Assembly: GCA_963701185.1 (NCBI GenBank)
Contig: OY969569.1
Span: forward strand, 615,486-665,547
DNA length: 50,062 nucleotides
Source of the DNA: Candidatus Gottesmanbacteria bacterium
GTDB lineage: Bacteria; Patescibacteriota; Microgenomatia; UBA10105; UBA927
Reading direction: 5' to 3'
Part shown: positions 13,701-45,496 of the stretch, one piece after another
How positions within the stretch are numbered: position 1 is the first letter of the stretch
Layout: each line of letters opens with the position of its first letter
Translations under genes and position numbers: made by a program
Notes under the pieces: generated by a model
The model's input: only the letters and a program-made list of their open reading frames with translations
Told to the model about the DNA's origin: nothing
Databases searched by the model: none

Positions 13701-15875
13701 GTCGAGAAGAGGGAGGAGAGAGTGAGGGGTTTGACACTAAGATTATCAATCTCCATTAAATCACCCGCATTATTACCAACATAAATTCTAAGATTGGGAC
13801 CAGTTGCAGTTGTTCGGCCGGAAACGGTGAAATTAGCCCACAAACTACTTGTTGCGGGATATAGAGCAGGAACCATGTTCCCCCCATATATACCTGATGA
13901 AGAATGTCCCGTCCATTTTGCTGCGTAAGTTAGCATGAACCAAGTATTAGCTGTTGTTGTCCATGCCCAATATGCACTTCCACTCACACCTGACCCCGGA
14001 TAGGCAAGACGTATATTGTATGAACCGGTGTTTGGTGCACTTGCATCAGATGATAGTGTTGGAGCGGGAGACCCTTGAGAAAACCATCCGGTTGTTGCAT
14101 TTGCTTCATTTCCATTTGGATCGGAAGCTGCATTTGCGGTAGTATAAAATTCACTCCCCAGCGTTGGGGTAATCACGCCACTATTTGTCAGTGTTGAAAC
14201 GCCGGAGACCAGGGTCGTCGGGGCGGAGGTCGTGAATTGGTCATTGAGAGTGTAGCCGTTCCAGCCGGTCAGGTCGATTTCAAAACCGGTATTAGTCATG
14301 GTACTGGCAGACATATCAAGGGTTACCCCGGTACCCGTCCACTTCATCGCCAATTTGGCCGCATCGGCCGTATCCGTGAGTTTTAATCCTTCGACTCCGC
14401 TTGCGACTTTTGCGGCCATGTCCCCCACGACGGTGAGGGTATTGGCGGGAGCCGTGGTCCCGATACCCACACGGGAGTTTGTGGTATCAAACGAGAGAAT
14501 ATTGGATATATTTTTGGTCGTGAGGACCGCCGTATCAACCAGGGTGAGATTGCCGGTTGTATCAACCGAGGCCACGATGGTCCCGTTATGGCCGTAGATG
14601 GTTAAGGGGGTATCCGTGACCGGGGCATTCACGGCACCGGAATACCCCAAGACGATATCCCCATCCTCGTCCATCAGCGCTTTCTGATATCCGGCAATGG
14701 CAAAACCCAACAATTGGCCGTTGGCAACCGACGTCGTCGGATTAATGAGGACCGTTGCCTGGGTATTCGTTGTATCGGTGGGCGCATAGGAGAAGGTGGT
14801 CTGGCCGGAAAAAGCCTGGGAGGAATTGGAATTGATATTGGCAACCCACACGTTATCAAACCGCAGGGCATTGGACCCCAAATCACTGCCCAAATCCGTC
14901 CCGGGAAGAAGGGATTTTCCGTTGGTAATCGTCGCGTTTCCGAAGGTGAGGGTATCCATCACCACCGTGTCCGTGGTTGTCGTTAACCCGACCGTGGTTC
15001 CGGTTTTTGTCCAACCGGAGAGGGTGTAATCCGGGGTATCGGCATTGATGGTGAGCGTTTTCCCTGTTGCATCGGTGGTGAGGGTAATGCCCCCGCTTTG
15101 GACAACGGTGAGGGTGTCGGTATTACTTCCGGCGGCAACACTGGTTTGGCCGGATACCGCGATGGTTTTAAAGATATTCTGGGAGGTTCCCCGATCGCTG
15201 TTGGTCACTTTCAACCCGTCGACGGTCATGCCGCCTCCTGCAGTCAGGGAGAGGGCGCCGGTTGAGCCGCCCAGAGACAGGACACCGGTGTTGGTTACCG
15301 TCGGAGTCTGGCCGGTGGAGACACTCATCCCCGTTCCTGCCGTCAGTCCATAGAGGATATTGCCTGCCGTGACCCGGGAAAATGATCGCGGAGCTCTGGG
15401 CAGCCTGAACATCTCCGGAGATGATCAACCCGGTATCAAACGTTGCCGTGTCTTTAAACTCTGCCGGCACATGGACGGTGAAGATGAAACTGCCGGACCC
15501 GCTGGCAACGGTGTCGCCGAGGACCGTTGCGGGGGTTTCGACCGGGGGGATAGTATGTTTTATTCGTATCATCCCTCCACCAAGGAAGAGTAAAACAAGA
15601 CCAAGGGAAACAAGAATCACCTTTGTCATTCCCGGCTTGACCGGGAATCCGCCTTCTGTTTTCTTTACAACCAATACCGATCCCCGCCTTCGCGGGGATG
15701 ACAAACCGTGCGAGGCAGAATTTCTGAGTTCTTCGATCTGCTCCGGGGTATACCGGCGCTGGTTGCCGAAAGTCCGCTGCGGGATGACCCGCCCCGCCTC
15801 TTCCCACCTCCGAAGGGTTTTTGTGGAGATGCCGAGGATCCGCGCCGCATCGTAGATCGATAAAAGTTTTGTCAT
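7794..15875 (-). CDS. Giant protein B: MerR-HTH, TM, fibre/adhesin-like repeats, S74 chaperone; frame broken at about 15387 and repeatedly in 9425-10480
   Basis: ORF pieces 15168-15875, 10472-15412, 10148-10426, 9821-10048, 9499-9762 and 7794-9425 are collinear with the paralogues; total span 8082 nt is a multiple of 3; ATGA overlaps at both ends. Confidence 0.72.
8240..8477 (-). other. Peptidase S74 intramolecular chaperone domain (copy B)
   Basis: WENTSSIALKENFTPVDPADLLTKISRLPLTRWNYKANPDTVTHIGPTAEKFYEIFG. End boundary approximate. Confidence 0.82.
15009..15837. repeat. Near-identical repeat of 22149-22977 (MerR-HTH to start of fibre)
   Basis: Offset 7140 throughout, with only scattered substitutions. 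Confidence 0.9.
15390..15875 (-). other. MerR-type HTH plus TM N-terminal segment of giant protein B
   Basis: LLSIYDAARILGISTKTLRRWEEAGRVIPQRTFGNQRRYTPEQIEEL, then TM VILVSLGLVLLFLGGGMI and VLG motif. Confidence 0.85.
15624..15703 (-). repeat. TGTC-tagged REP doublet (80 bp) in frame inside giant gene B
   Basis: Minus strand TGTC-ATCCCCGC(GAAG)GCGGGGAT-spacer-ATTCCCGG(TCAAG)CCGGGAAT-GACA; translated as LSSPRRRGSVLVVKKTEGGFPVKPGMT. Confidence 0.9.
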
Positions 15876-21800: not shown

Positions 21801-23030
21801 CCATCCTCGTCCATCAGCGCTTTCTGATATCCGGCAATGGCAAACGCAAGGAGCTGTCCGTTAGCAGTCGAGGTGGTGGGATTGATAATCACCGACGCCT
21901 GCGAGAGTGTCGTATCGGTGGGCGCATAGGAGAAGGTGGTCTGGCCGGAAAAAGCCTGGGAGGAATTGGAATTGATATTGGCAACCCAGAGATTATTAAA
22001 CCGTTTGCCCGCGGACCCCAAATCACTGCCCAAATCCGTATCAGGCAGAAGATTATGGCCATTGGTAATGGTTGCACCCCCGAACGTGATTCCGTCTACC
22101 ACGACCGCATCCGTCAGTGTCGTGAGACCCACGCTGGTACCGCCGTCTGTCCAACCGGAGAGGGTGTAATCCGGGGTATCGGCATTGATGGTGAGCGTTT
22201 TCCCTGTTGCGTCGGTGGTGAGGGTAATGCCCCCGCTTTGGACAACGGTGAGGGTGTCGGTATTACTTCCGGCGGCAACACTGGTTTGGCCGGACACGGC
22301 GATGGTTTTAAAGATATTCTGGGAGGTTCCCCGATCGCTGTTGGTCACTTTCAACCCGTCGACGGTCATGCCGCCTCCTGCAGTCAGGGAGAGGGCGCCG
22401 GTTGAGCCGCCCAGAGACAGGACACCGGTGTTGGTTACCGTCGGAGTCTGGCCGGTGGAGACACTCATCCCCGTTCCTGCCGTCAGTCCATAGAGGATAT
22501 TGCCTGCCGTGACCCGGGAAAATGATTGCGGAGCTCTGGGCAGCCTGAACATCTCCGGAGATGATCAACCCGGTATCAAACGTTGCCGTGTCTTTAAACT
22601 CTGCCGGCACATGGACGGTGAAGATGAAACTGCCGGACCCGCTGGCAACGGTGTCGCCGAGGACCGTTGCGGGGGTTTCGACCGGGGGGATAGTATGTTT
22701 TATTCGTATCATCCCTCCACCAAGGAAGAGTAAAACAAGACCAAGGGAAACAAGAATCACCTTTGTCATTCCCGGCTTGACCGGGAATCCGCCTTCTGTT
22801 TTCTTTACAACCAATACCGATCCCCGCCTTCGCGGGGATGACAAACCGTGCGAGGCAGAATTTCTGAGTTCTTCGATCTGCTCCGGGGTATACCGGCGCT
22901 GGTTGCCGAAGGTCCGCTGCGGGATGACCCGCCCCGCCTCTTCCCACCTCCGAAGGGTTTTTGTGGAGATGCCGAGGGTTTCGGCGGCATCCTGAATGGA
23001 GAGAAGCGTATCGACAGTATATGAATTCAT
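15872..23030 (-). CDS. Giant protein A: MerR-HTH, TM, fibre/adhesin-like repeats, S74 chaperone (about 2385 aa if the single +1 break near 22527 is removed)
   Basis: ORF 22308-23030 (HTH, TM) overlaps ORF 15872-22552 (2226 aa, intact); the junction aligns to the unbroken N-terminus of paralogue C. Confidence 0.8.
16320..16555 (-). other. Peptidase S74 intramolecular chaperone domain (copy A)
   Basis: WENTSSIALKENFTPVDPADLLTKIARLPLTRWNYK..HIGPTAEKF. End boundary approximate. Confidence 0.82.
22530..23030 (-). other. MerR-type HTH plus TM N-terminal segment of giant protein A
   Basis: LLSIQDAAETLGISTKTLRRWEEAGRVIPQRTFGNQRRY, then the same TM helix as copy B. Confidence 0.85.
22764..22843 (-). 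repeat. TGTC-tagged REP doublet (80 bp) in frame inside giant gene A
   Basis: Same sequence as 15624-15703. Confidence 0.9.
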
Positions 23031-23926: not shown

Positions 23927-24002
23927 TGTCATTCCCGCGTAGGCGGGAATCGGTATTGGTTTTATTGAAGAAGGCGGATTCCCGGTCAAGCCGGAAATGA
24001 CA
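23927..24002 (+). repeat. TGTC-tagged REP doublet (76 bp)
   Basis: TGTC-ATTCCCGC(GTAG)GCGGGAAT-CGGTATTGGTTTTATTGAAGAAGGCGG-ATTCCCGG(TCAAG)CCGGAAAT-GACA. Confidence 0.9.
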
Positions 24003-24010
24003 AGAAAATC

Positions 24011-24352
24011 ATGCTCCGTCATTATTATGTATACATAATGGCAAATAATAGACCGACGTTATATGTCGGTGTAACAAATAGTATTGAAAGAAGATCAGTT
24101 CAACATAAATATAAATTTATCGATGGGTTTACAAAAAAATATAATCTTTCAAAACTTGTATATTTTGAACATTATACTGATGTAAAAGAAGCGATCAAAC
24201 GGGAAAAACAATTGAAACATTGGAATCGGAGTTGGAAATTAAATTTGATACAAAAGATGAATCCTGCATTTGAGGATTTATATGATAAGCTGATATTAGG
24301 CGGGATAAAACAGAAGGCGGATCCCCGCCTTCGCGGGGATGACAAGCAATAA
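24011..24352 (+). CDS. GIY-YIG nuclease family protein (small stand-alone UPF0213-like type)
   Basis: YYVYIMAN..TLYVGVTNSIERR..QHK..FTKKYNLSKLVYFE..AIKREKQLKHWNRSWKLNLIQKMNP; the last codons DPRLRGDDK are the REP hairpin. Confidence 0.9.
   Translation: MLRHYYVYIMANNRPTLYVGVTNSIERRSVQHKYKFIDGFTKKYNLSKLVYFEHYTDVKEAIKREKQLKHWNRSWKLNLIQKMNPAFEDLYDKLILGGIKQKADPRLRGDDKQ
24307..24344 (+). repeat. Single REP hairpin with linker at right end of the GIY-YIG cassette
   Basis: AAAACAGAAGGCGG-ATCCCCGC(CTTC)GCGGGGAT-GACA. Confidence 0.88.
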
Positions 24353-28018: not shown

Positions 28019-28094
28019 CAATTTTCAATTTTCAATGATTCATTGACCAATTGTTCATTTATTGAAAATTGATAATTGAAAATTGATAATTGAT
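28019..28094. repeat. AT-rich imperfect 7-bp repeat array with inverted halves, between atpD and atpC
   Basis: CAATTTT CAATTTT CAAT... then ATTGAAA ATTGATA ATTGAAA ATTGATA ATTGATA. Confidence 0.75.
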
Positions 28095-33606: not shown

Positions 33607-33703
33607 AGCACTTAGTACTGAGAACTTAGAGCTTGGCGCAAATGAACACTTTTTTCCGTACCTAATTCTGAATAATGAATCATGAATTATGAATTATGAA
33701 TAA
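33607..33703. repeat. Two intergenic 7-bp arrays
   Basis: AGCACTT AGTACTG AGAACTT AGAGCTT (33607-33634) and TGAATAA TGAATCA TGAATTA TGAATTA TGAATAA (33669-33703). Confidence 0.75.
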
Positions 33704-33749: not shown

Positions 33750-34805
33750 CTATTTTCTTGCGACTGTCCTTTTATATAGGTCTATATTTTCCAGCGCAAC
33801 TCCGGTCCCCCGCACAACGCAGAGCAAAGGGTCTTCCGACACATGACAGACAACGCCGGTCATGTGGGTCATGAGTTTGTCAAAATTCCGAAGGAGACTT
33901 GTGCCGCCCGCCATGACAATCCCCTTGTCAATAATATCTGCGGCCAATTCCGGCGGCGTTTCTTCAAGGACTCCTTTCACCGCAACGATGATTTGGTGCA
34001 GGGTCGGGGTAATGGCTTCTGAAATTTCACCGCTCGTAAGTTCCACCATGCGCGGCAACCCCGACACCGTATCCCTGCCGCGGACCTCCATAGATGTCAT
34101 CCCCGACTTGATCGGGGATCCGCCGATTCCCGCCTTCGCGGGAATGACAACCGGGAGAGCATCTCCTATGGTCATTTTTATCGTCTCTGCCATCCGTTCC
34201 CCGATAATCAGGTTATATTTTTTCTTGATGTAATTGAATATCGCCTCATCCAGTTTGTTGCCCGCCACCCGTGCGCTCTTGTGAACGACGACCCCGCCCA
34301 GGGATATCACCGCGGCCTCCGTTGACCCGCCGCCGACATCAACAATCATGTGTCCCGAGGCCTGGGCGATGGGAATTTTGGCGCCGATGGCTGCCGCAAG
34401 CGGCTCTTCGATAAGATACGCAACATTGGCGCCGGCAGAGAGCGTGGCATCCAGAACTGCCCGGCGCTCGACCTGGGTGACGCCGGACGGCACGCAGATC
34501 ATGACTTCGGGTTTAAAAATACGGTTGCGGCCGACTACTTTATCGATAAAGAAGGAAAGCATTGCCTCGGTAATCCGGTAATCGGCAATCACGCCGTCGC
34601 GCATCGGACGCGTCGCCATGATATTGCCGGGGGTCCGCCCCAGCATTTCCTTGGCCTCGTTGCCCACGGCCACCACGCGGCCGTCATCCAGGGTTATGGC
34701 CACCACCGTCGGCTCGTTGACGACAACACCCGAGCCCGCCAGCCACACGAGGGAATTTGCCGTCCCTAAATCTATGCCGATTCTTTTACGCCACTTGTTA
34801 AACAT
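33750..34805 (-). CDS. mreB: Rod shape-determining protein MreB/Mbl with in-frame REP insertion
   Basis: IGIDLGTAN, RPMRDGVIAD, EEPLAAAIGA, VDVGGGSTE, AGGTSLL. Confidence 0.96.
   Translation of the reverse strand: MFNKWRKRIGIDLGTANSLVWLAGSGVVVNEPTVVAITLDDGRVVAVGNEAKEMLGRTPGNIMATRPMRDGVIADYRITEAMLSFFIDKVVGRNRIFKPEVMICVPSGVTQVERRAVLDATLSAGANVAYLIEEPLAAAIGAKIPIAQASGHMIVDVGGGSTEAAVISLGGVVVHKSARVAGNKLDEAIFNYIKKKYNLIIGERMAETIKMTIGDALPVVIPAKAGIGGSPIKSGMTSMEVRGRDTVSGLPRMVELTSGEISEAITPTLHQIIVAVKGVLEETPPELAADIIDKGIVMAGGTSLLRNFDKLMTHMTGVVCHVSEDPLLCVVRGTGVALENIDLYKRTVARK
34095..34149 (-). repeat. TGTC-tagged REP doublet (55 bp, minimal spacer) inside mreB
   Basis: TGTC-ATTCCCGC(GAAG)GCGGGAAT-CGGCGG-ATCCCCGA(TCAAG)TCGGGGAT-GACA; reads VIPAKAGIGGSPIKSGMT. 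Confidence 0.9.
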
Positions 34806-34807
34806 AC

Positions 34808-34894
34808 TTTTAAATTTTCAATTTGAAATTTTTAATTTTTAATCAATTTTTAATTCTTAATTTCAAATTTTAAATTTTAAATTTCGAATTTTTT
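34808..34894. repeat. AT-rich imperfect 7-bp array upstream of mreB
   Basis: AATTTTC AATTTGA AATTTTT AATTTTT.. AATTTTA AATTTTA AATTTCG. Confidence 0.7.
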
Positions 34895-38648: not shown

Positions 38649-39929
38649 TTATATTGTGAGCAGCGCCGCAAGCTTGTCATCCTTGGGTTTATTCCACACA
38701 ACCGCCAGATTCAGGGTCTCCTGCCGGATATATTTCGGTAGAAGTATATCAATATCTTTTTTCGTAACCGCTTCGATTTTGGCAAGGTAGCCGTCCAGGG
38801 TAATAATTTTCTGGCCAAAGAGTTCCTGCCGGCCGTAAAATTCGCCCAAAAATTCCGGGTCTTCGCTTTTAAAGGCCAGCATGGTTGCCAGGCGCTTTTT
38901 GGCAACCCGCACTTCCGCATCCGTGACGCCGCCGGCGGCAACCTTGAATAACTCATGCATGACTGCTTTCACCGTTTCTTCAACTTTCGCGGTCGCCACT
39001 CCGGCATAAATGGACCAGTACCCCACATCCTTCCAACTGTCCGCAGTCGAGCGGATGGCATAACAGAGCCCCCGCTTTTCACGGATTTCTTTAAATAACC
39101 GGGAGGTAAACGAGACGCCCATAATGAGGTTAAAGAGGTTCCAGGCAAACCGGTCATGAGAATCGCGGTTGAAGGCGCGCAGTCCGAGGGTAATATGCGC
39201 CTGCCGGGCATCGGGTTTGGTGACGACTTCGACCTTCGGCTCGGATTGCCTATCGACAACAAGCTCAATATCCTTCAAGGACTCTCCTTGAAGTCGCCCG
39301 AACCATTCTTTCGTTTTATTCATGATTCCTGATTCATGATTCCTGATTCTTCCTGCCAGCACCACAACAAGCCGATCCGGCGTGTACCAGCTATCGTGAT
39401 ATGATTTCAGTTCTTTTGAACCCACTGCCCGCAGGGATTTTTCTTTCCCGATAATCGGCATCCCCAATTTCGTCCCGGGGTAGAGCATGTGGTGAAACGT
39501 CTCGCCGACTTTCACTGCCGGTTCATCTTCATACCGTTTCATTTCTTCCCTAATGACATCCCGTTCGCGGTCAACGTGTTTTTGTTCCAGTCGCGGTTTT
39601 GTCGCAAGCTCTGTATTCATCTCGAGCGCCAACGGCCAGTCGGAGCTGAGTACTTTATTGTGGTAACTGGTGATATCAATGTCCGTATACGCGTTCTGGA
39701 GGCCTCCGGCCCGTTCGATCGTATTGACATCCTCCGTCGTCGGATACTTTTTTGTCCCTTTAAAAACCATGTGTTCGAGAAAATGCGATATGCCGTTGAC
39801 TTCCGGCGTTTCGTAGCGGGAGCCAGCCGCGACCATCACGGATGTGGCGACAGAATTGACGCCCTCCATGGGGATCATCAACAGGCGCACACCATTTGAC
39901 AGGGTTACTTTTTGAAAAGGAAGGGTCAT
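38649..39929 (-). CDS. M16 (pitrilysin-like) zinc peptidase
   Basis: AGSRYE..GISHFLEHMVFKGT (HxxEH); SRLFKEIREKRGLCY. Confidence 0.92.
   Translation of the reverse strand: MTLPFQKVTLSNGVRLLMIPMEGVNSVATSVMVAAGSRYETPEVNGISHFLEHMVFKGTKKYPTTEDVNTIERAGGLQNAYTDIDITSYHNKVLSSDWPLALEMNTELATKPRLEQKHVDRERDVIREEMKRYEDEPAVKVGETFHHMLYPGTKLGMPIIGKEKSLRAVGSKELKSYHDSWYTPDRLVVVLAGRIRNHESGIMNKTKEWFGRLQGESLKDIELVVDRQSEPKVEVVTKPDARQAHITLGLRAFNRDSHDRFAWNLFNLIMGVSFTSRLFKEIREKRGLCYAIRSTADSWKDVGYWSIYAGVATAKVEETVKAVMHELFKVAAGGVTDAEVRVAKKRLATMLAFKSEDPEFLGEFYGRQELFGQKIITLDGYLAKIEAVTKKDIDILLPKYIRQETLNLAVVWNKPKDDKLAALLTI
39318..39350. repeat. 7-bp array in frame inside the M16 peptidase gene
   Basis: CATGATT CCTGATT CATGATT CCTGATT; encodes RIRNHESGIMN. 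Confidence 0.7.
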
Positions 39930-40951: not shown

Positions 40952-41470
40952 GGGACGACCGATTATCGCCCGATGGATATCATCGGTCCATTCAAGGATA
41001 TTACCAACTGCGGGAACAATAAACTCTGTCAATTCATCAACTTTCTTCCCTACCTTGTCGACTTTCTTCTCTATCCCATCAACTTTTGTTTCGACGGCAG
41101 AAATCCGTTTATCGACGTTATCAACTTTTGTTTCGACGGCAGAAATCCGTTTATCGACGTTATCAACTTTTGTTTCGACGGTAGAAATCCGTTTATCGAC
41201 GTTATCAACTTTTGTTTCGACGGTAGAAATCCGTTTATCGACGTTATCAACTTTTGTTTCGACGGTAGAAATCCGTTTATCGACGTTATCAACTTTTGTT
41301 TCGACGGCAGAAATCCGTTTATCGACGTTATCAACTTTTGTTTCGACGGTAGAAATCCGTTTATCGACGTTATCAACTTTTGTTTCGACGCGCGCAACAT
41401 CTTTTTTAACCGGTTCAAGTTTCTCTTCCACGAGAGAACCAATATTTTGAAGATCTTTTTTCGTTAACAT
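40928..41470 (-). CDS. Coiled-coil protein with seven 14-aa repeats
   Basis: (VETKVDNVDKRIS[T/A]) x7; MLTKKDLQNIG N-terminus; promoter-supported start. Confidence 0.8.
   Translation of the reverse strand: MLTKKDLQNIGSLVEEKLEPVKKDVARVETKVDNVDKRISTVETKVDNVDKRISAVETKVDNVDKRISTVETKVDNVDKRISTVETKVDNVDKRISTVETKVDNVDKRISAVETKVDNVDKRISAVETKVDGIEKKVDKVGKKVDELTEFIVPAVGNILEWTDDIHRAIIGRPSKRSHGN
41078..41390. repeat. 42-bp tandem repeat, 7 full units plus a partial unit
   Basis: ATCAACTTTTGTTTCGACGG(C/T)AGAAATCCGTTTATCGACGTT. Confidence 0.95.
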
Positions 41471-41505
41471 GATTTCACTGTACGTCGTGAAAACTTGCGA
41501 GTCAA
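41470..41505 (-). promoter_or_regulatory. Putative promoter, leaderless start
   Basis: TTGACT-N17-TACAGT-N6-ATG. Confidence 0.65.
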
Positions 41506-42931: not shown

Positions 42932-43633
42932 ATGGGATTTCTTCTTCTGTTATTTGCTGAACTTTTCTTTCTCTTTTTCCTTTCCCAACGGCTCACGCAA
43001 TCGGTCTTTGACCTGTGCCTCCTTCTTTTCCGCGCCCGGTCGGTGGCAATCACAATTATTACGATCATTAATTTCCCCGGTACCGTTATCCATGAGCTCT
43101 CGCATCTGTTTACCGCTGAAGTGTTGGGGGTGCGGACCGGAAAACTGACCCTTGTTCCCGAATCCATACAATCGGATGAAATAAAAGCGGGCAGTGTGAT
43201 GATCGCCCAAACTGATCCATTCCGGCGCTATCTCATCGGCCTTGCGCCGATGGTCACCGGGTTGATTACTATCTCTGCCCTTTCCTATGCATTATTCATG
43301 ATTCATTATTCATTATTCACCTACGGTATTTTGTATCTCCTGCTTGCCGTATCCAACGCCATGTTTTCTTCGCCCGAGGATCTTAAAGGGTTCCTTCCGT
43401 TTATCGTGACATTGGGTATTATGGCTGCGGCCGCGTATATAGCCGGCTTCCGGATCGGTATCACAGGCCCGGCGCTTTCCGTCGCCACACAGATTTTGGA
43501 TGCGCTGACCAAAAGTTTGGGGATCGTCCTGGCCATCAATATCATCGGGATTATTCTGACGAAGCTATTGATTGCTCTCACGGAAAAACTCACGCGGAGA
43601 AAAATATATCATAATTTCAAAGCTAAGCTTTGA
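42932..43633 (+). CDS. M50-like membrane metalloprotease family protein
   Basis: PGTVIHELSH (HExxH), IGLAP, PEDL, several TM segments. Confidence 0.7.
   Translation: MGFLLLLFAELFFLFFLSQRLTQSVFDLCLLLFRARSVAITIITIINFPGTVIHELSHLFTAEVLGVRTGKLTLVPESIQSDEIKAGSVMIAQTDPFRRYLIGLAPMVTGLITISALSYALFMIHYSLFTYGILYLLLAVSNAMFSSPEDLKGFLPFIVTLGIMAAAAYIAGFRIGITGPALSVATQILDALTKSLGIVLAINIIGIILTKLLIALTEKLTRRKIYHNFKAKL
43294..43321. repeat. 7-bp ATTCATT array in frame inside the M50-like gene
   Basis: ATTCATG ATTCATT ATTCATT ATTCACC; encodes FMIHYSLFT. Confidence 0.6.
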
Positions 43634-43639
43634 TTTTTT

Positions 43640-45496
43640 CTAGTCCCGTTTTAACACTTCAAAGAATGCCTCCTGGGGAATCTCGACCCGGCCGATGAGT
43701 TTCATTCTCGCCTTGCCTTTTTTCTGTTTTTTCAGGAGTTTATCTTTGCGCGTGCGGTCGCCGCCGTAGAGCTTCTGGATGACGTCTTTGCGGAACGCCT
43801 TGACATCCGAGCGTGCCACGACTTTGCCGCCGATTGCCGCCTGTATGGGCACCTCAAACTGATGGCGCGGAATGACGGCGGCCAGCCGCTCGGTAATTTC
43901 GATACTGCGCGTATGCGCCTGATCGCGGACCACGAGAAATGACAGCGCGTCGACTTTTTCGCGGTTGACGAGAATATCGATCTTCGCGACATCTACCGTC
44001 TGATAGTCGAAAAATTCGTAATCGAGGCTGGCGTAGCCCTCGGTAATGCTTTTCAATCTGTCAAAAAAATCAATAATCATCTCGGAAAGCGGAATACGAT
44101 AGGTAAACTCTACTTGGTCTGCCGTATATTTTTGGTCCACATACGTCCCCCGCTTTTCCTGCGCCAATTGCATAATGGGCCCAACGTACCGCTTCGGCGT
44201 GTAAATCGTGACTTCCATAATCGGCTCTTTCACCTCTTCAATAACCGTGGGGTCCGGAAATTCCGACGCCGATTGGATAAAAACCTCTACCCCCGATGTT
44301 TTTTTCAGATGATATTCGACCGAAGGCGCCGTCGCGATCATGTTGAGGTCAAATTCGCGGGACAACCGCTCCTGCACGATTTCCGCGTGGAGTAACCCCA
44401 AAAATCCGCAGTGGAAGCCGTTGCCCAGAGCCAGTGACGAAATCGGCCGGAAGGTGAACGCGCTGTCGGAGAGCCGCAATTTTTCCATCGTCTCCCGGGC
44501 GTAACTAAACTCTTCGCTGTTTATGGGAAACAAACTTAAAAACACCATGGGCTTGGGTTCTTTGTAGCCCGGAAGCGATGATACATTTTCTGTAGAAATT
44601 GTATCCCCGACCTTGGCAAATCGTACATCCTTAAGACCCGTTGCAATATACCCCACTTCTCCCGCAGACAATTTTTCCCCGTTGCCGATTGTGTGCATAT
44701 GAGGAAGAAAATACCCCATCTCGATAGGCGTTACGGAGGCGCCGGATGCCATAAACTGGAGCCGGGTGGACGAAGTAAACGGAATCTCCCCGTCGACAAC
44801 CCGCACAAACACGACGACGCCTTTATGTGCGTCATATTGCGAGGAAAAAATTAACGCGCGGGGTGGTTTTTCCGGATCTCCTTTTGGTGGAGAAATTTTT
44901 TCAACAATCGCCTCTAAAACTGCTGCGACGTTTTCTCCTGTTTTGGCGGAAATCTTTATTATGTCTTCTTTTCTAAATCCCAGACTCTCAAGCTCTTGTA
45001 TTGTTTCTTCTATCCGTGCTGTCGGCATGTCTATTTTATTGATAATCGGAATAATGGTGAGACCGTGAGAGCGCGCCTGATGGAGATTTGCCAGCGTCTG
45101 GGCCTGCACACCCTGGGTTGCGTCCACCACCAAGAGCGCGCCCTCACAGGCCGCAAGCGACCGGGATACCTCGTAGCCGAAATCGACATGACCGGGGGTA
45201 TCGATGAGATTTAATACAAAAGTGTCATTCTCGCGAAGGCGAGAATCGGTTTTGGTATTCGGAGAAAAGGCGGATCCCCGATCAGGTCGGGGATGACAAC
45301 GGTAAATCATCCGGACAGGTGCGAGTTTAATGGTAATCCCCCGTTCCCGTTCAATGGGATTGCTGTCGAGGATTTGCGGCCGGCAGTCGCGGTGCGCGAT
45401 TGTCCCCGTCACCTCGAGAAGCCGATCTGCCAGCGTCGATTTTCCATGGTCAATGTGCGCCACGATTGCAAAATTACGGATATGTGATTGATCCAT
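43640..45496 (-). CDS. lepA: Elongation factor 4 (LepA) with in-frame REP insertion
   Basis: IVAHIDHGKSTLADR, ERERGITIK, LIDTPGHVDF, NKID, GFLGLLH, C-terminal KQKKGKARMK. Confidence 0.97.
   Translation of the reverse strand: MDQSHIRNFAIVAHIDHGKSTLADRLLEVTGTIAHRDCRPQILDSNPIERERGITIKLAPVRMIYRCHPRPDRGSAFSPNTKTDSRLRENDTFVLNLIDTPGHVDFGYEVSRSLAACEGALLVVDATQGVQAQTLANLHQARSHGLTIIPIINKIDMPTARIEETIQELESLGFRKEDIIKISAKTGENVAAVLEAIVEKISPPKGDPEKPPRALIFSSQYDAHKGVVVFVRVVDGEIPFTSSTRLQFMASGASVTPIEMGYFLPHMHTIGNGEKLSAGEVGYIATGLKDVRFAKVGDTISTENVSSLPGYKEPKPMVFLSLFPINSEEFSYARETMEKLRLSDSAFTFRPISSLALGNGFHCGFLGLLHAEIVQERLSREFDLNMIATAPSVEYHLKKTSGVEVFIQSASEFPDPTVIEEVKEPIMEVTIYTPKRYVGPIMQLAQEKRGTYVDQKYTADQVEFTYRIPLSEMIIDFFDRLKSITEGYASLDYEFFDYQTVDVAKIDILVNREKVDALSFLVVRDQAHTRSIEITERLAAVIPRHQFEVPIQAAIGGKVVARSDVKAFRKDVIQKLYGGDRTRKDKLLKKQKKGKARMKLIGRVEIPQEAFFEVLKRD
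45223..45298 (+). repeat. TGTC-tagged REP doublet (76 bp) antisense inside lepA
   Basis: TGTC-ATTCTCGC(GAAG)GCGAGAAT-CGGTTTTGGTATTCGGAGAAAAGGCGG-ATCCCCGA(TCAGG)TCGGGGAT-GACA. Confidence 0.9.

What the first reader, a model, noticed from the sequence alone, without database searches (positions are those of the whole stretch)
45223..45298. REP element translated antisense in the GTPase domain of LepA
Seen: CHPRPDRGSAFSPNTKTDSRLREND sits between VRMIYR and FVLNLIDTPGH. The element has the same 76-bp length and similar spacer as the doublet beside the GIY-YIG gene. Known: this beta-hairpin turn is about 7 aa in typical EF4. With mreB and the MerR genes, the family is tolerated in three different frame/orientation contexts. 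Inference: insertions are common and filtered for surface loops and open frames.
Basis: partly seen in the sequence, partly recalled or inferred. Interest (0 to 1): 0.65.

Follow-up and report, generated by a model that had tools for sequence, protein, structure and literature searches.

The report
Hairpin repeat translated inside LepA
A 75-base double-hairpin repeat, of the type cut by Ssn nucleases and related to the Rickettsia "selfish DNA in genes" elements, sits in frame in a surface turn of the translation GTPase LepA of a tiny groundwater bacterium. This kind of event is known, but relatives carry many different hairpin inserts in the same turn.

Summary
A 76-nt element, TGTCAT…ATGACA with two perfect 8-bp hairpins, lies in lepA (window 43640-45496, minus strand). 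It adds exactly 25 codons (C67-D91) between strands beta2 and beta3 of the G domain.

- **Absent from close relatives.** Five same-genus orthologues aligned at this site have only HYK-D/E-Y there.
- **One other carrier.** A metagenome lineage (P0002) has the same insert at the same junctions.
- **The gene is under strong purifying selection** (dN/dS 0.06). The insert peptide is not (dN/dS about 1.5) and is modelled as a disordered loop.
- **The hairpin DNA is conserved.** 8 of 75 bases differ, against about 21% in the rest of the gene, where synonymous sites are near saturation.
- **The family has 21 loci in this 995-kb genome.** Eight or nine lie in frame in genes: Tgt, RluA-like, MreB, LepA, ArgS, LeuS, two MerR-like genes, and the tail of a GIY-YIG gene.
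- **It is a TGTC/CGTC-tagged REP.** This equals the NTS/SRM motif of Ssn ssDNA nucleases. An ssn-like gene bracketed by the repeat lies at 24011-24352.

New here: in 75 of 116 related LepAs this turn holds unrelated hairpin inserts, with footprints of excision.

Verdict: a new member of a known kind, of moderate interest.

The parts
43640..45496 (-). lepA (EF4), 618 aa. It is intact and is the only full-length copy found in the genome.
   Evidence: ORF. Pfam hits GTP_EFTU, EFG_C and LepA_C. E = 2.8e-196 to Thermus EF4 5imq, with G1-G4 motifs aligned. dN/dS is 0.05-0.08 against three relatives. The other G000 matches listed are partial, aligning only within about residues 94-241.
45224..45298 (-). 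Net in-frame insertion of 75 nt, or 25 codons (C67-D91), encoding CHPRPDRGSAFSPNTKTDSRLREND.
   Evidence: DNA alignment with same-genus orthologues that lack it. Protein alignment.
45272..45298 (-). Hairpin B (TGTCATCCCCGACCTGATCGGGGATCC): 8-bp stem, 5-nt loop.
   Evidence: Fold. Fits the published SRM search pattern. 27 of 27 bases identical in the P0002 contig. The exact 27-mer occurs in many phyla.
45248..45271 (-). Spacer between the two hairpins (encodes about AFSPNTKT).
   Evidence: Five of the 8 differences from the P0002 contig lie here.
45223..45247 (+). Hairpin A (TGTCATTCTCGCGAAGGCGAGAATC): 8-bp stem, 4-nt loop. It differs from the family consensus ATTCCCGC/GCGGGAAT by a compensatory C>T / G>A pair.
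   Evidence: The family consensus equals the core of the Neisseria NTS.
34095..34149 (-). Spacer-deleted doublet of the same family (55 nt), in frame in MreB (VVIPAKAGIGGSPIKSGMT).
   Evidence: In the genus it is intact in G004, decayed in G002, G005 and G006, and absent in G001 and G003.
15624..15703 (-). 80-nt doublet in frame in the linker of a MerR-like ORF.
22764..22843 (-). Identical 80-nt doublet in the duplicated MerR-like ORF.
23927..24002 (+). 76-nt doublet ending 8 nt upstream of the ssn-like gene.
24011..24352 (+). ssn-like single-domain GIY-YIG gene (113 aa), the candidate cognate ssDNA nuclease of the hairpin family.
   Evidence: Pfam GIY-YIG, 3.7e-13. Sequence. Bracketed by the repeat. 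Close homologues co-occur with the repeat and are bracketed by it in relatives. Ssn family description in PMC11893778.
24321..24344 (-). Single hairpin that forms the last codons of the ssn-like gene (…DPRLRGDDKQ*).

Best explanation
**What it is.** The insert is a non-autonomous palindromic repeat: an inverted doublet of two TGTC-tagged REP hairpins. This is the CGTC-REP superfamily, which equals the NTS/SRM motif recognised as single-stranded DNA by Ssn GIY-YIG nucleases.

**What happened (shown).**
- It landed in the beta2-beta3 turn of the LepA G domain in an ancestor shared with one other known lineage.
- It added exactly 25 codons with no stop.
- The turn is a permissive surface loop.

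**What follows (inferred).** The gene survived and the repeat is translated as a disordered 25-residue loop with no role of its own.

**Who acts on the DNA (partly shown, partly inferred).** The hairpins remain hairpins. They are probably acted on by the ssn-like nuclease encoded 21 kb away, whose gene is bracketed by the same repeat. That this nuclease or another enzyme actually copies the element is not shown.

**Life cycle.** Across the clade the same few LepA loops repeatedly gain, lose and exchange hairpin elements: insertion, decay, and precise excision that leaves TGTCATGACA.
For: **A real, lineage-specific insertion.**
- Five same-genus orthologues aligned here read VRM-HYK-D/E-Y-ILNL. 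The window adds 75 nt.
- An independent JGI contig carries the same element at the same junctions.
- Monophyly of the two carriers is not rejected (p-AU 0.22).

**A functional gene.**
- Core dN/dS is 0.062 with pS 0.64.
- The G motifs are intact.
- No stops occur in LepA of the relatives, apart from one TAG in a piece from G022.

**A passive peptide.**
- Insert dN/dS is about 1.5.
- In the AF2 model beta2 is 61-66 and beta3 is 92-97. Residues 67-91 are coil, with pLDDT below 50 at 72-86.

**Repeat family.**
- 12 doublets and 9 singlets.
- 8-9 copies are intragenic, all open and in frame, in at least 4 frame/orientation combinations.
- Intergenic copies sit 1-10 nt from gene ends.

**Class.**
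- 8-bp stems that start with AT, 4-5-nt loops, and no flanking RAYT, as for the CGTC REPs of PMC3733652.
- Hairpin B fits the SRM pattern, and hairpin A's consensus equals the NTS core.

**Candidate enzyme.**
- A 113-aa GIY-YIG gene is bracketed by the repeat.
- Close homologues co-occur with the repeat in 41 relatives: Fisher p = 0.005, Spearman 0.63.
- They are bracketed by or abut the repeat in G007, G013, G024, G026, G028, G029 and G034.

**Turnover.**
- 75 of 116 homologues carry at least 15 aa at this turn.
- At least 24 gain/loss changes occur on the tree.
- LepAs that are 93-96% identical carry unrelated inserts.
- The inserts fold as hairpins; the empty site does not.
- The excision footprint TGTCATGACA is seen in P0071.
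- The MreB copy is decayed in G002, G005 and G006, and G004 has a nested insertion.
Against: - There is no direct evidence that the loop is present in the protein. The only RNA-type evidence is one 208-nt contig of a relative, in a run labelled RNA-Seq that may contain DNA.
- No mobilising enzyme is demonstrated. Ssn is known only as a nuclease (PMC11893778).
- The association is imperfect. G012 has 8 copies without a close homologue, and six genomes with a homologue have no copy matching my pattern. The statistic is not corrected for phylogeny.
- The hairpin DNA is far better conserved than neutral sites (8 of 75 differences against pS 0.64). Pure 'junk' does not predict this. It needs constraint, gene conversion or re-insertion.
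- The ssn-like protein could not be assigned to cd10448 with the tools here. It has no NCBIfam hit, and its only PDB hit is a weak match to a UPF0213 GIY-YIG protein.
Confidence: 0.82

Rival explanations
1. **Targeted cassette site.** The beta2-beta3 turn, and four other LepA loops, are hit because a hairpin-processing enzyme inserts or swaps hairpins at specific DNA sites or at pre-existing hairpins. The enzyme could be Ssn-like, RAYT-like or part of the replication machinery. Under this view tolerance alone does not explain the pattern. The insert in the window and the one in P0002 could then be independent hits or re-insertions.
For: - Only about 5 sites in LepA collect inserts, and two of them are occupied in over 60% of 116 homologues.
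- LepAs that are 93-96% identical carry four unrelated hairpins at the same place.
- TGTCAT-type elements of at least 4 sequence families start at the same codon boundary and in the same frame, x-Y-x|CHP.
- A second palindrome is nested in the loop of a resident hairpin in G004 MreB.
- The insert is much less diverged than the synonymous sites around it.
- P0001 and P0002 are not resolved as sisters.
Against: - Junctions are not identical for all families. The VIPAKAGI and VIARSE types start about 5 nt later.
- The empty site has no hairpin or obvious motif.
- Flanks of the 21 copies in the genome share no target sequence beyond a preference for T.
- The shared, altered flanking codons in the window and P0002 (IYR…TFV) fit common descent.
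- Binary tolerance of loops could give the same picture.
Confidence: 0.25
2. **Host-level nucleic-acid function.** The hairpins inside lepA are kept because they are useful as DNA or RNA. They might act as Ssn cut sites that mark or limit single-stranded DNA during uptake and recombination, or as an mRNA structure that tunes lepA expression.
For: - Hairpin B is 27 of 27 identical, and hairpin A has a compensatory change, although synonymous sites are saturated.
- In Neisseria, SsnA acting on NTS modulates transformation (PMC11893778).
- The doublet offers one correctly oriented motif on each strand (inference).
Against: - The insert is absent from most close relatives, and the site holds unrelated hairpins or nothing in others.
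- The same conservation is a property of the family in every context and across phyla.
- Copies decay in some lineages.
Confidence: 0.15
3. **Exapted protein loop.** The 25 residues give LepA a new function, for example a new contact.
For: The insert lies in the inter-switch hairpin of a GTPase, and five of six flanking residues changed together with it.
Against: - Insert dN/dS is about 1.5.
- The model shows it as disordered.
- Closest relatives lack it, and other lineages have unrelated sequences there.
Confidence: 0.04
4. **Artefact or dead gene.** The insert is a mis-assembly through a repeat, or lepA is a pseudogene, or the insert is removed before translation as an intron, an intein or by ribosomal bypass.
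For: Repeats can mislead assemblers, and no expression data exist for this organism.
Against: - An independent contig has the same insert and junctions.
- A further contig in another run spans the insert and both flanks.
- dN/dS is 0.06.
- 25 residues are too few for an intein and 75 nt too few for a self-splicing intron (established knowledge).
- All intragenic copies are open and in frame, which would not be required if they were removed.
Confidence: 0.03

Closest known systems
Ssn ssDNA nucleases with NTS / Ssn-related motifs (SRM) (Chenal et al. 2025, Nat Commun 16:2388, PMC11893778)
   Same: - The family's hairpin A consensus is the NTS core, GTCATTCCCGCG[A/C]AGGCGGGAATC.
- Hairpin B fits the published SRM pattern.
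- A small single-domain GIY-YIG gene is bracketed by the motif (SRM-ssn-SRM).
- Gene and motif co-occur across genomes.
   Different: - The tag is TGTC rather than CGTC, and the 3-nt tail differs.
- The host is a CPR bacterium. The word Patescibacteria does not occur in the paper's text (0 occurrences).
- The 12 search passages returned from the paper did not mention in-frame copies in genes. The full text was not read.
- Nuclease activity and cd10448 membership of the protein here are untested.
CGTC-tagged REPs, including intragenic REP dimers (Di Nocera, De Gregorio, Rocco 2013, BMC Genomics 14:522, PMC3733652)
   Same: - 8-9-bp stems that begin with AT.
- 4-5-nt loops and a short unpaired tail.
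- Mostly inverted dimers.
- No flanking RAYT.
- Intragenic dimers that encode 20-30 residues.
   Different: - The first base of the tag is T in all 21 loci here.
- A much larger share of copies is intragenic (8-9 of 21).
- Recurrent use of the same protein loop by many families was not described.
Rickettsia palindromic elements (RPE; Ogata et al. 2000 Science, recalled from memory; cited in PMC3733652 and PMC1779305)
   Same: Palindromic repeats inserted in frame in conserved genes of a small-genome bacterium and translated as extra surface loops. Copies decay over time.
   Different: - Different host phylum.
- The element is shorter than RPE-1.
- Here a candidate cognate nuclease is identified.
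- The site shows repeated gain, loss and exchange.
REPIN-RAYT systems (Bertels and Rainey; Nunvar et al.)
   Same: Inverted REP doublets that form a longer hairpin, with populations of near-identical copies.
   Different: - There is no GTAG tag.
- The two RAYT-like genes of this genome are flanked by other palindromes, so RAYT is not the evident partner.

Membership tests
CGTC-tagged REP superfamily (PMC3733652) | Tetranucleotide tag CGTC at one end | tested here: inconclusive
   All 21 loci here start with TGTC. CGTC-tagged copies of the same hairpin occur in relatives G026 and G028, and in G034's lepA insert.
CGTC-tagged REP superfamily (PMC3733652) | Stem of 8-9 bp beginning with A-T pairs, loop of 4-5 nt, short unpaired tail | tested here: met
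   Fold: stems ATCCCCGA/TCGGGGAT with a 5-nt loop, and ATTCTCGC/GCGAGAAT with a 4-nt loop. The tails are CCG and CGG; the published consensus is CCA.
CGTC-tagged REP superfamily (PMC3733652) | No RAYT gene flanked by the repeat | tested here: met
   The Y1_Tnp genes at genome 338025 and 383379 are flanked by other palindromes.
Ssn / SRM system (PMC11893778) | Repeat fits the NTS or the degenerate SRM search pattern | tested here: met
   Hairpin B of the lepA insert matches the SRM pattern. The family's hairpin A matches the NTS with 2-3 mismatches, all in the first base and the tail.
Ssn / SRM system (PMC11893778) | Small single-domain GIY-YIG gene flanked on both sides by the repeat | tested here: met
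   A 113-aa ORF at window 24011-24352, with PF01541 only. It is bracketed by 23927-24002 and 24321-24344. The same layout occurs in relatives.
Ssn / SRM system (PMC11893778) | Gene and repeat co-occur across genomes | tested here: met
   2x2 table 14/6 against 5/16, Fisher p = 0.005. Spearman 0.63. Not corrected for phylogeny.
Ssn / SRM system (PMC11893778) | Protein belongs to cd10448 and cuts its motif only as ssDNA | not testable with these tools
   No CDD library is available. There is no NCBIfam hit, and the only PDB hit is weak, to the UPF0213 GIY-YIG protein 1zg2. Tyr6, Tyr18 and Glu65 lie near the positions of SsnA Y6, Y17 and E64 named in the paper, but this rests on position counts only.
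Rickettsia palindromic elements (working analogue) | Palindromic repeat inserted in frame in conserved genes, with the ORF kept and the site in a surface loop | tested here: met
Rickettsia palindromic elements (membership) | Sequence belongs to an RPE family of Rickettsia | not tested
   No RPE sequence was compared. PMC3733652 states that RPE-4 and RPE-6 are CGTC REPs.
REPIN-RAYT | GTAG-tagged REP doublets with a cognate RAYT flanked by them | tested here: not met
   The tag is TGTC. RAYT-like genes carry other hairpins.
Intein / self-splicing intron | Size and conserved splicing motifs | tested here: not met
   The insert is 25 residues or 75 nt, made of two simple hairpins. This is far below the size of inteins and of group I or II introns (established knowledge).

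The most novel reading that the evidence does not exclude
In Microgenomates-type CPR bacteria a handful of loops in core proteins act as hairpin cassette sites. In LepA these are the inter-switch beta2-beta3 turn and four others.

Unrelated palindromic elements are inserted at these sites, precisely excised (leaving TGTCATGACA) and replaced, within the time it takes LepA to diverge by about 5% in protein sequence. The elements are Ssn-type TGTCAT doublets and AT-rich heptamer hairpins.

Resident hairpins are kept near the family consensus at the DNA level while the peptide drifts. This would mean an active, hairpin-directed process, such as Ssn-like or RAYT-like enzymes or hairpin-templated repair, that targets existing hairpins or specific sites. 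Random insertion followed by selection would not be enough to explain it.
Probability: 0.22. Interest if true: 0.75.

Novelty: new member of a known kind. Interest (0 to 1): 0.5.

Why it matters
The finding ties three literatures together in one locus: Rickettsia-type 'selfish DNA in genes', the CGTC-tagged REPs that had no known enzyme, and the Ssn ssDNA nucleases described in 2025. It does so in a CPR bacterium with almost no intergenic space.

It also offers a natural experiment. The same turn of a universally conserved GTPase holds dozens of different hairpin inserts in close relatives, along with empty sites, decayed copies and excision footprints. Three things can therefore be measured from existing metagenomes and tested with one small purified nuclease:
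- rates of gain and loss;
- how well protein loops tolerate inserts;
- whether a nuclease maintains or spreads its own target sites inside essential genes.

As a single event, though, an in-frame REP dimer in a loop is already a described phenomenon.

Tried and rejected
1. **RAYT as the mobiliser.** The genome has two Y1_Tnp genes, but their hairpins are unrelated to this family. RAYT-like genes lie next to lepA in G007, G012, G018, G021 and G022. The hairpins around those examined (G018, G007, G012) are not the ones inserted in lepA. Rejected as the cognate enzyme.

2. **A built-in coding-compatible design.** Only 39 of 72 frames of the doublets are open, against 35% in shuffles. This is a modest effect, not a design.

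3. **A conserved target sequence or target-site duplication.** None is seen at the 21 loci beyond a T before TGTCAT. The empty lepA site does not fold.

4. **Expression evidence.** Three public runs hold only relatives. One 208-nt contig in a run labelled RNA-Seq spans the insert at about 93.5% identity, which is too weak to count.

5. **A recent recombination tract to explain the low divergence of the insert.** The 24 flanking codons differ at 12 of 72 bases, close to the gene average. Not supported.

6. **Assigning the GIY-YIG protein by NCBIfam or PDB.** No informative hit.

7. **Searching earlier notes by the element's sequence.** Nothing found.

8. **Loading loci of other genomes into the Python box.** They were not there, so alignments were used to bring the DNA in.
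Full report
**1. What is there**

The window is part of a single-contig genome of 995,214 bp with 47.7% G+C. Public record titles and earlier notes place its relatives in Candidatus Gottesmanbacteria, in the CPR/Patescibacteria.

lepA occupies 43640-45496 on the minus strand and encodes 618 aa. It has the GTP_EFTU, EFG_C and LepA_C domains. It aligns end to end with the solved EF4 of Thermus (E = 2.8e-196), and the G motifs are intact.

Between VRMIYR and TFVLNLIDTPGH the gene reads CHPRPDRGSAFSPNTKTDSRLREND. The DNA at 45223-45298 is TGTCAT…ATGACA, 76 nt. As a single strand it folds into two 8-bp hairpins with loops of 5 and 4 nt. The fold has z = -4.46, and none of 200 shuffles fold as well.

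**2. It is an insertion, and a lineage-specific one**

- Five same-genus genomes align across the site (G001, G003, G004, G005, G006). All read VRM-HYK-D/E-Y-ILNLIDTPGH with nothing in between. G002's search pieces abut in the same way.
- The window adds exactly 25 codons, at 45298 down to 45224. The 76th base is the first base of the next codon.
- One other lineage carries the same element at the same junctions, with the same altered flanking codons (IYR…TFV). It is a 27,966-bp JGI contig encoding P0002.
- On a careful tree built without the insert, the two carriers fall in one 10-member polytomy with six empty-site proteins. Holding the two carriers together is not rejected (p-AU 0.22). One ancestral insertion is the simplest reading.

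**3. The gene is under selection, the peptide is not, and the hairpins are**

| Region (window vs P0002 contig) | pS | dN/dS | Base differences |
|---|---|---|---|
| lepA core | 0.64 (dS about 1.5) | 0.062 | about 21% |
| 75-nt insert | 0.08 | about 1.5 | 8 of 75 |

- Hairpin B is identical at 27 of 27 bases, and five of the eight differences lie in the spacer.
- In the window, hairpin A differs from the family consensus by a compensatory pair, ATTCTCGC…GCGAGAAT against ATTCCCGC…GCGGGAAT.
- The 24 flanking codons differ at 12 of 72 bases. A recent recombination tract therefore does not explain the low divergence of the insert.
- The AlphaFold model, built from a 50-sequence alignment, puts beta2 at 61-66 and beta3 at 92-97. 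Residues 67-91 are coil, with pLDDT below 50 at 72-86.
- Thermus EF4 has a 7-residue turn at this place.

**4. The family in the genome**

I found 12 doublets of 55-80 nt and 9 single hairpins, 21 loci in all.

Copies in frame and free of stops lie in:
- Tgt
- an RluA-type pseudouridine synthase
- MreB
- LepA
- ArgS
- LeuS
- two duplicated MerR-like ORFs
- the last codons of a GIY-YIG gene

These are supported.

At least four frame/orientation combinations are used. Only 39 of 72 frames of the doublets are open, against 35% in shuffles. Openness is therefore mostly a filter on copies, not a property of the element.

The genome is roughly 92% coding by a crude ORF tiling. Intragenic copies are thus fewer than random insertion would give, but far more than expected for an 'extragenic' repeat. 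The intergenic copies sit 1-10 nt from gene ends.

The MreB copy shows the later life of such inserts:
- It is perfect in the window, where the spacer has been deleted.
- It is perfect in G004, with the full spacer and another palindrome nested in a hairpin loop.
- It is decayed in G002, G005 and G006.
- It is absent in G001 and G003.

**5. What kind of repeat it is**

The family fits the CGTC-tagged REPs of Di Nocera et al. 2013 in several respects:
- stems of 8-9 bp that begin with AT;
- loops of 4-5 nt and a short tail;
- mostly inverted dimers;
- no dedicated RAYT.

That paper also reports intragenic dimers encoding 20-30 residues, notably in Rickettsia, where they are the RPE elements. 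Here the tag is TGTC in every copy. CGTC versions occur in relatives.

The two RAYT-like genes of this genome carry other palindromes.

- The paper defines the Neisseria NTS as CGTCATTCCCGCGMAVGCGGGAATCYRG, plus a degenerate SRM pattern (PMC11893778).
- It shows that small single-domain GIY-YIG proteins, whose genes are flanked by these hairpins, cut them specifically as ssDNA.
- Hairpin B of the lepA insert fits the SRM pattern.
- The family's hairpin A equals the NTS except for the first base and the tail.
- A 113-aa GIY-YIG ORF at 24011-24352 follows the 76-nt doublet by 8 nt and ends inside a single hairpin.
- In 41 relatives, close homologues of this ORF (E ≤ 1e-20) co-occur with the hairpin family: 14/6 against 5/16, Fisher p = 0.005, Spearman 0.63. 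This is not corrected for phylogeny.
- In G007, G013, G024, G026, G028, G029 and G034 the homologue is bracketed by or abuts the hairpins (coordinates).
- The exact 27-nt hairpin B occurs in Patescibacteria, Nitrospirales, Proteobacteria, Cloacimonadota, Bacteroidota and others. This matches the wide spread of SRMs.

I could not test membership of the protein in cd10448, its activity, or whether it spreads the repeat.

**6. The wider pattern in LepA**

Among the best 120 homologues, the turn holds 4 residues in 32 proteins, 8-9 residues in 8, and 15-50 residues in most of the rest.

The long inserts belong to many families:
- CHPRPDRGS…DSRLRGND, as here;
- CHPELVSGS…PKQVRHD;
- CHPGPRAGI…IPGQARND;
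- VIPAKAGI…IPDQVGDD, which is this family read in another frame;
- VIARSE…;
- many AT-rich heptamer hairpins.

DNA from several of these folds as hairpins, with z from -2.1 to -6.2. The empty site does not fold.

A tree without the insert needs at least 24 gain/loss changes among 110 proteins. Four LepAs that are 93-96% identical in the core carry four unrelated inserts. Their DNA differs at many synonymous sites, so these lineages are not very recent.

Measured against an empty-site LepA, inserts of at least 15 aa fall at only about five sites:

| Site (after residue) | Homologues with insert, of 116 |
|---|---|
| 66 | 75 |
| 215-219 | about 12 |
| 281 | 35 |
| 384 | 72 |
| 438-441 | about 16 |

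P0071 keeps only TGTCATGACA where P0007 has a full doublet. This is a precise 57-nt in-frame deletion between CAT microhomologies. By protein sequence (CHDKQE), its sister P0100 has the same footprint.

**7. Reading**

The best-supported account is a selfish or neutral Ssn-type REP doublet, tolerated and translated as a floppy loop in a permissive turn.

Two things go beyond plain 'junk plus filter'. One is the DNA-level conservation of the hairpins. The other is the concentration of many unrelated hairpins in a few loops. They may reflect gene conversion or re-insertion, and site or hairpin targeting. I give that about one chance in four or five.

Translation itself is inferred from frame, stop and selection patterns, not observed. 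The only transcript-like evidence is one short contig of a relative.

**8. Novelty**

In-frame palindromic repeats in core genes are established, through RPE and the intragenic CGTC/GTAG REPs. The repeat-nuclease pair was described in 2025. Other agents of this scan have reported copies of this family in other genes of this genome. This locus is therefore a new member of a known kind.

The recurrent, multi-family use of the LepA inter-switch turn, with footprints and nesting, is the part I did not find described. That statement rests on three full-text searches and searched passages of two papers.

Noticed in passing
window 23927-24352: An ssn-like GIY-YIG gene (113 aa) is bracketed by the same hairpin family, giving an SRM-ssn-SRM layout. 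Its last ten codons are a translated hairpin.
   Followed up: partly
LepA homologues P0001-P0120 (positions of the 598-aa empty form P0027): LepA of this clade has about five insertion sites, after residues 66, 215-219, 281, 384 and 438-441. The site after 384 holds inserts of up to 126 aa, and 72 of 116 proteins have at least 15 aa there.
   Followed up: partly
L041 (G004 mreB), about 2170-2330: The MreB copy of the doublet in G004 has a second, unrelated GC-rich palindrome inserted in the loop of hairpin A. It is still in frame.
   Followed up: partly
L173 and L174 vs L175 (lepA of P0071, P0100, P0007): P0071 retains only TGTCATGACA where P0007 has a 67-nt TGTCAT…ATGACA doublet. This is a precise 57-nt excision footprint in frame. 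P0100 shows the same CHDKQE peptide.
   Followed up: yes
G007:C5, G012:C93, G018:C29, G021:C33, G022:C7: A RAYT-like (Y1_Tnp) gene lies within about 700 nt of lepA in five genera of the family. In those examined (G018, G007, G012) the nearby hairpins are not the ones found inside lepA.
   Followed up: partly
window 33664-33703, 39316-39349, 43286-43319, 28019-28092, 34808-34881: AT-rich repeats made of heptamer units (for example TGAATTA/TGAATCA) form inverted repeats. Similar heptamer hairpins are the commonest inserts in the LepA turn of relatives.
   Followed up: no
window 40994-41497: A tandem array of about 12 copies of a 42-nt unit, with 86-99% identity in the centre.
   Followed up: no
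window 1-22000: A large segment of about 7.7-8.1 kb is repeated three times at 60-100% identity (giant repetitive genes). The two MerR-like ORFs that carry the 80-nt doublet belong to this repeat.
   Followed up: no
Genome-contig loci L043-L122: The exact 27-nt hairpin B occurs in genomes of many phyla and is abundant in Nitrospirales MAGs. It also reached depths of 500-650 in a groundwater metagenome run.
   Followed up: no
window 45205-45222 and 45299-45316 (codons flanking the insert): Five of the six residues flanking the insert differ from all empty-site relatives (HYK/DYI to IYR/TFV) and are shared with P0002. The rest of the protein is about 88% identical.
   Followed up: partly
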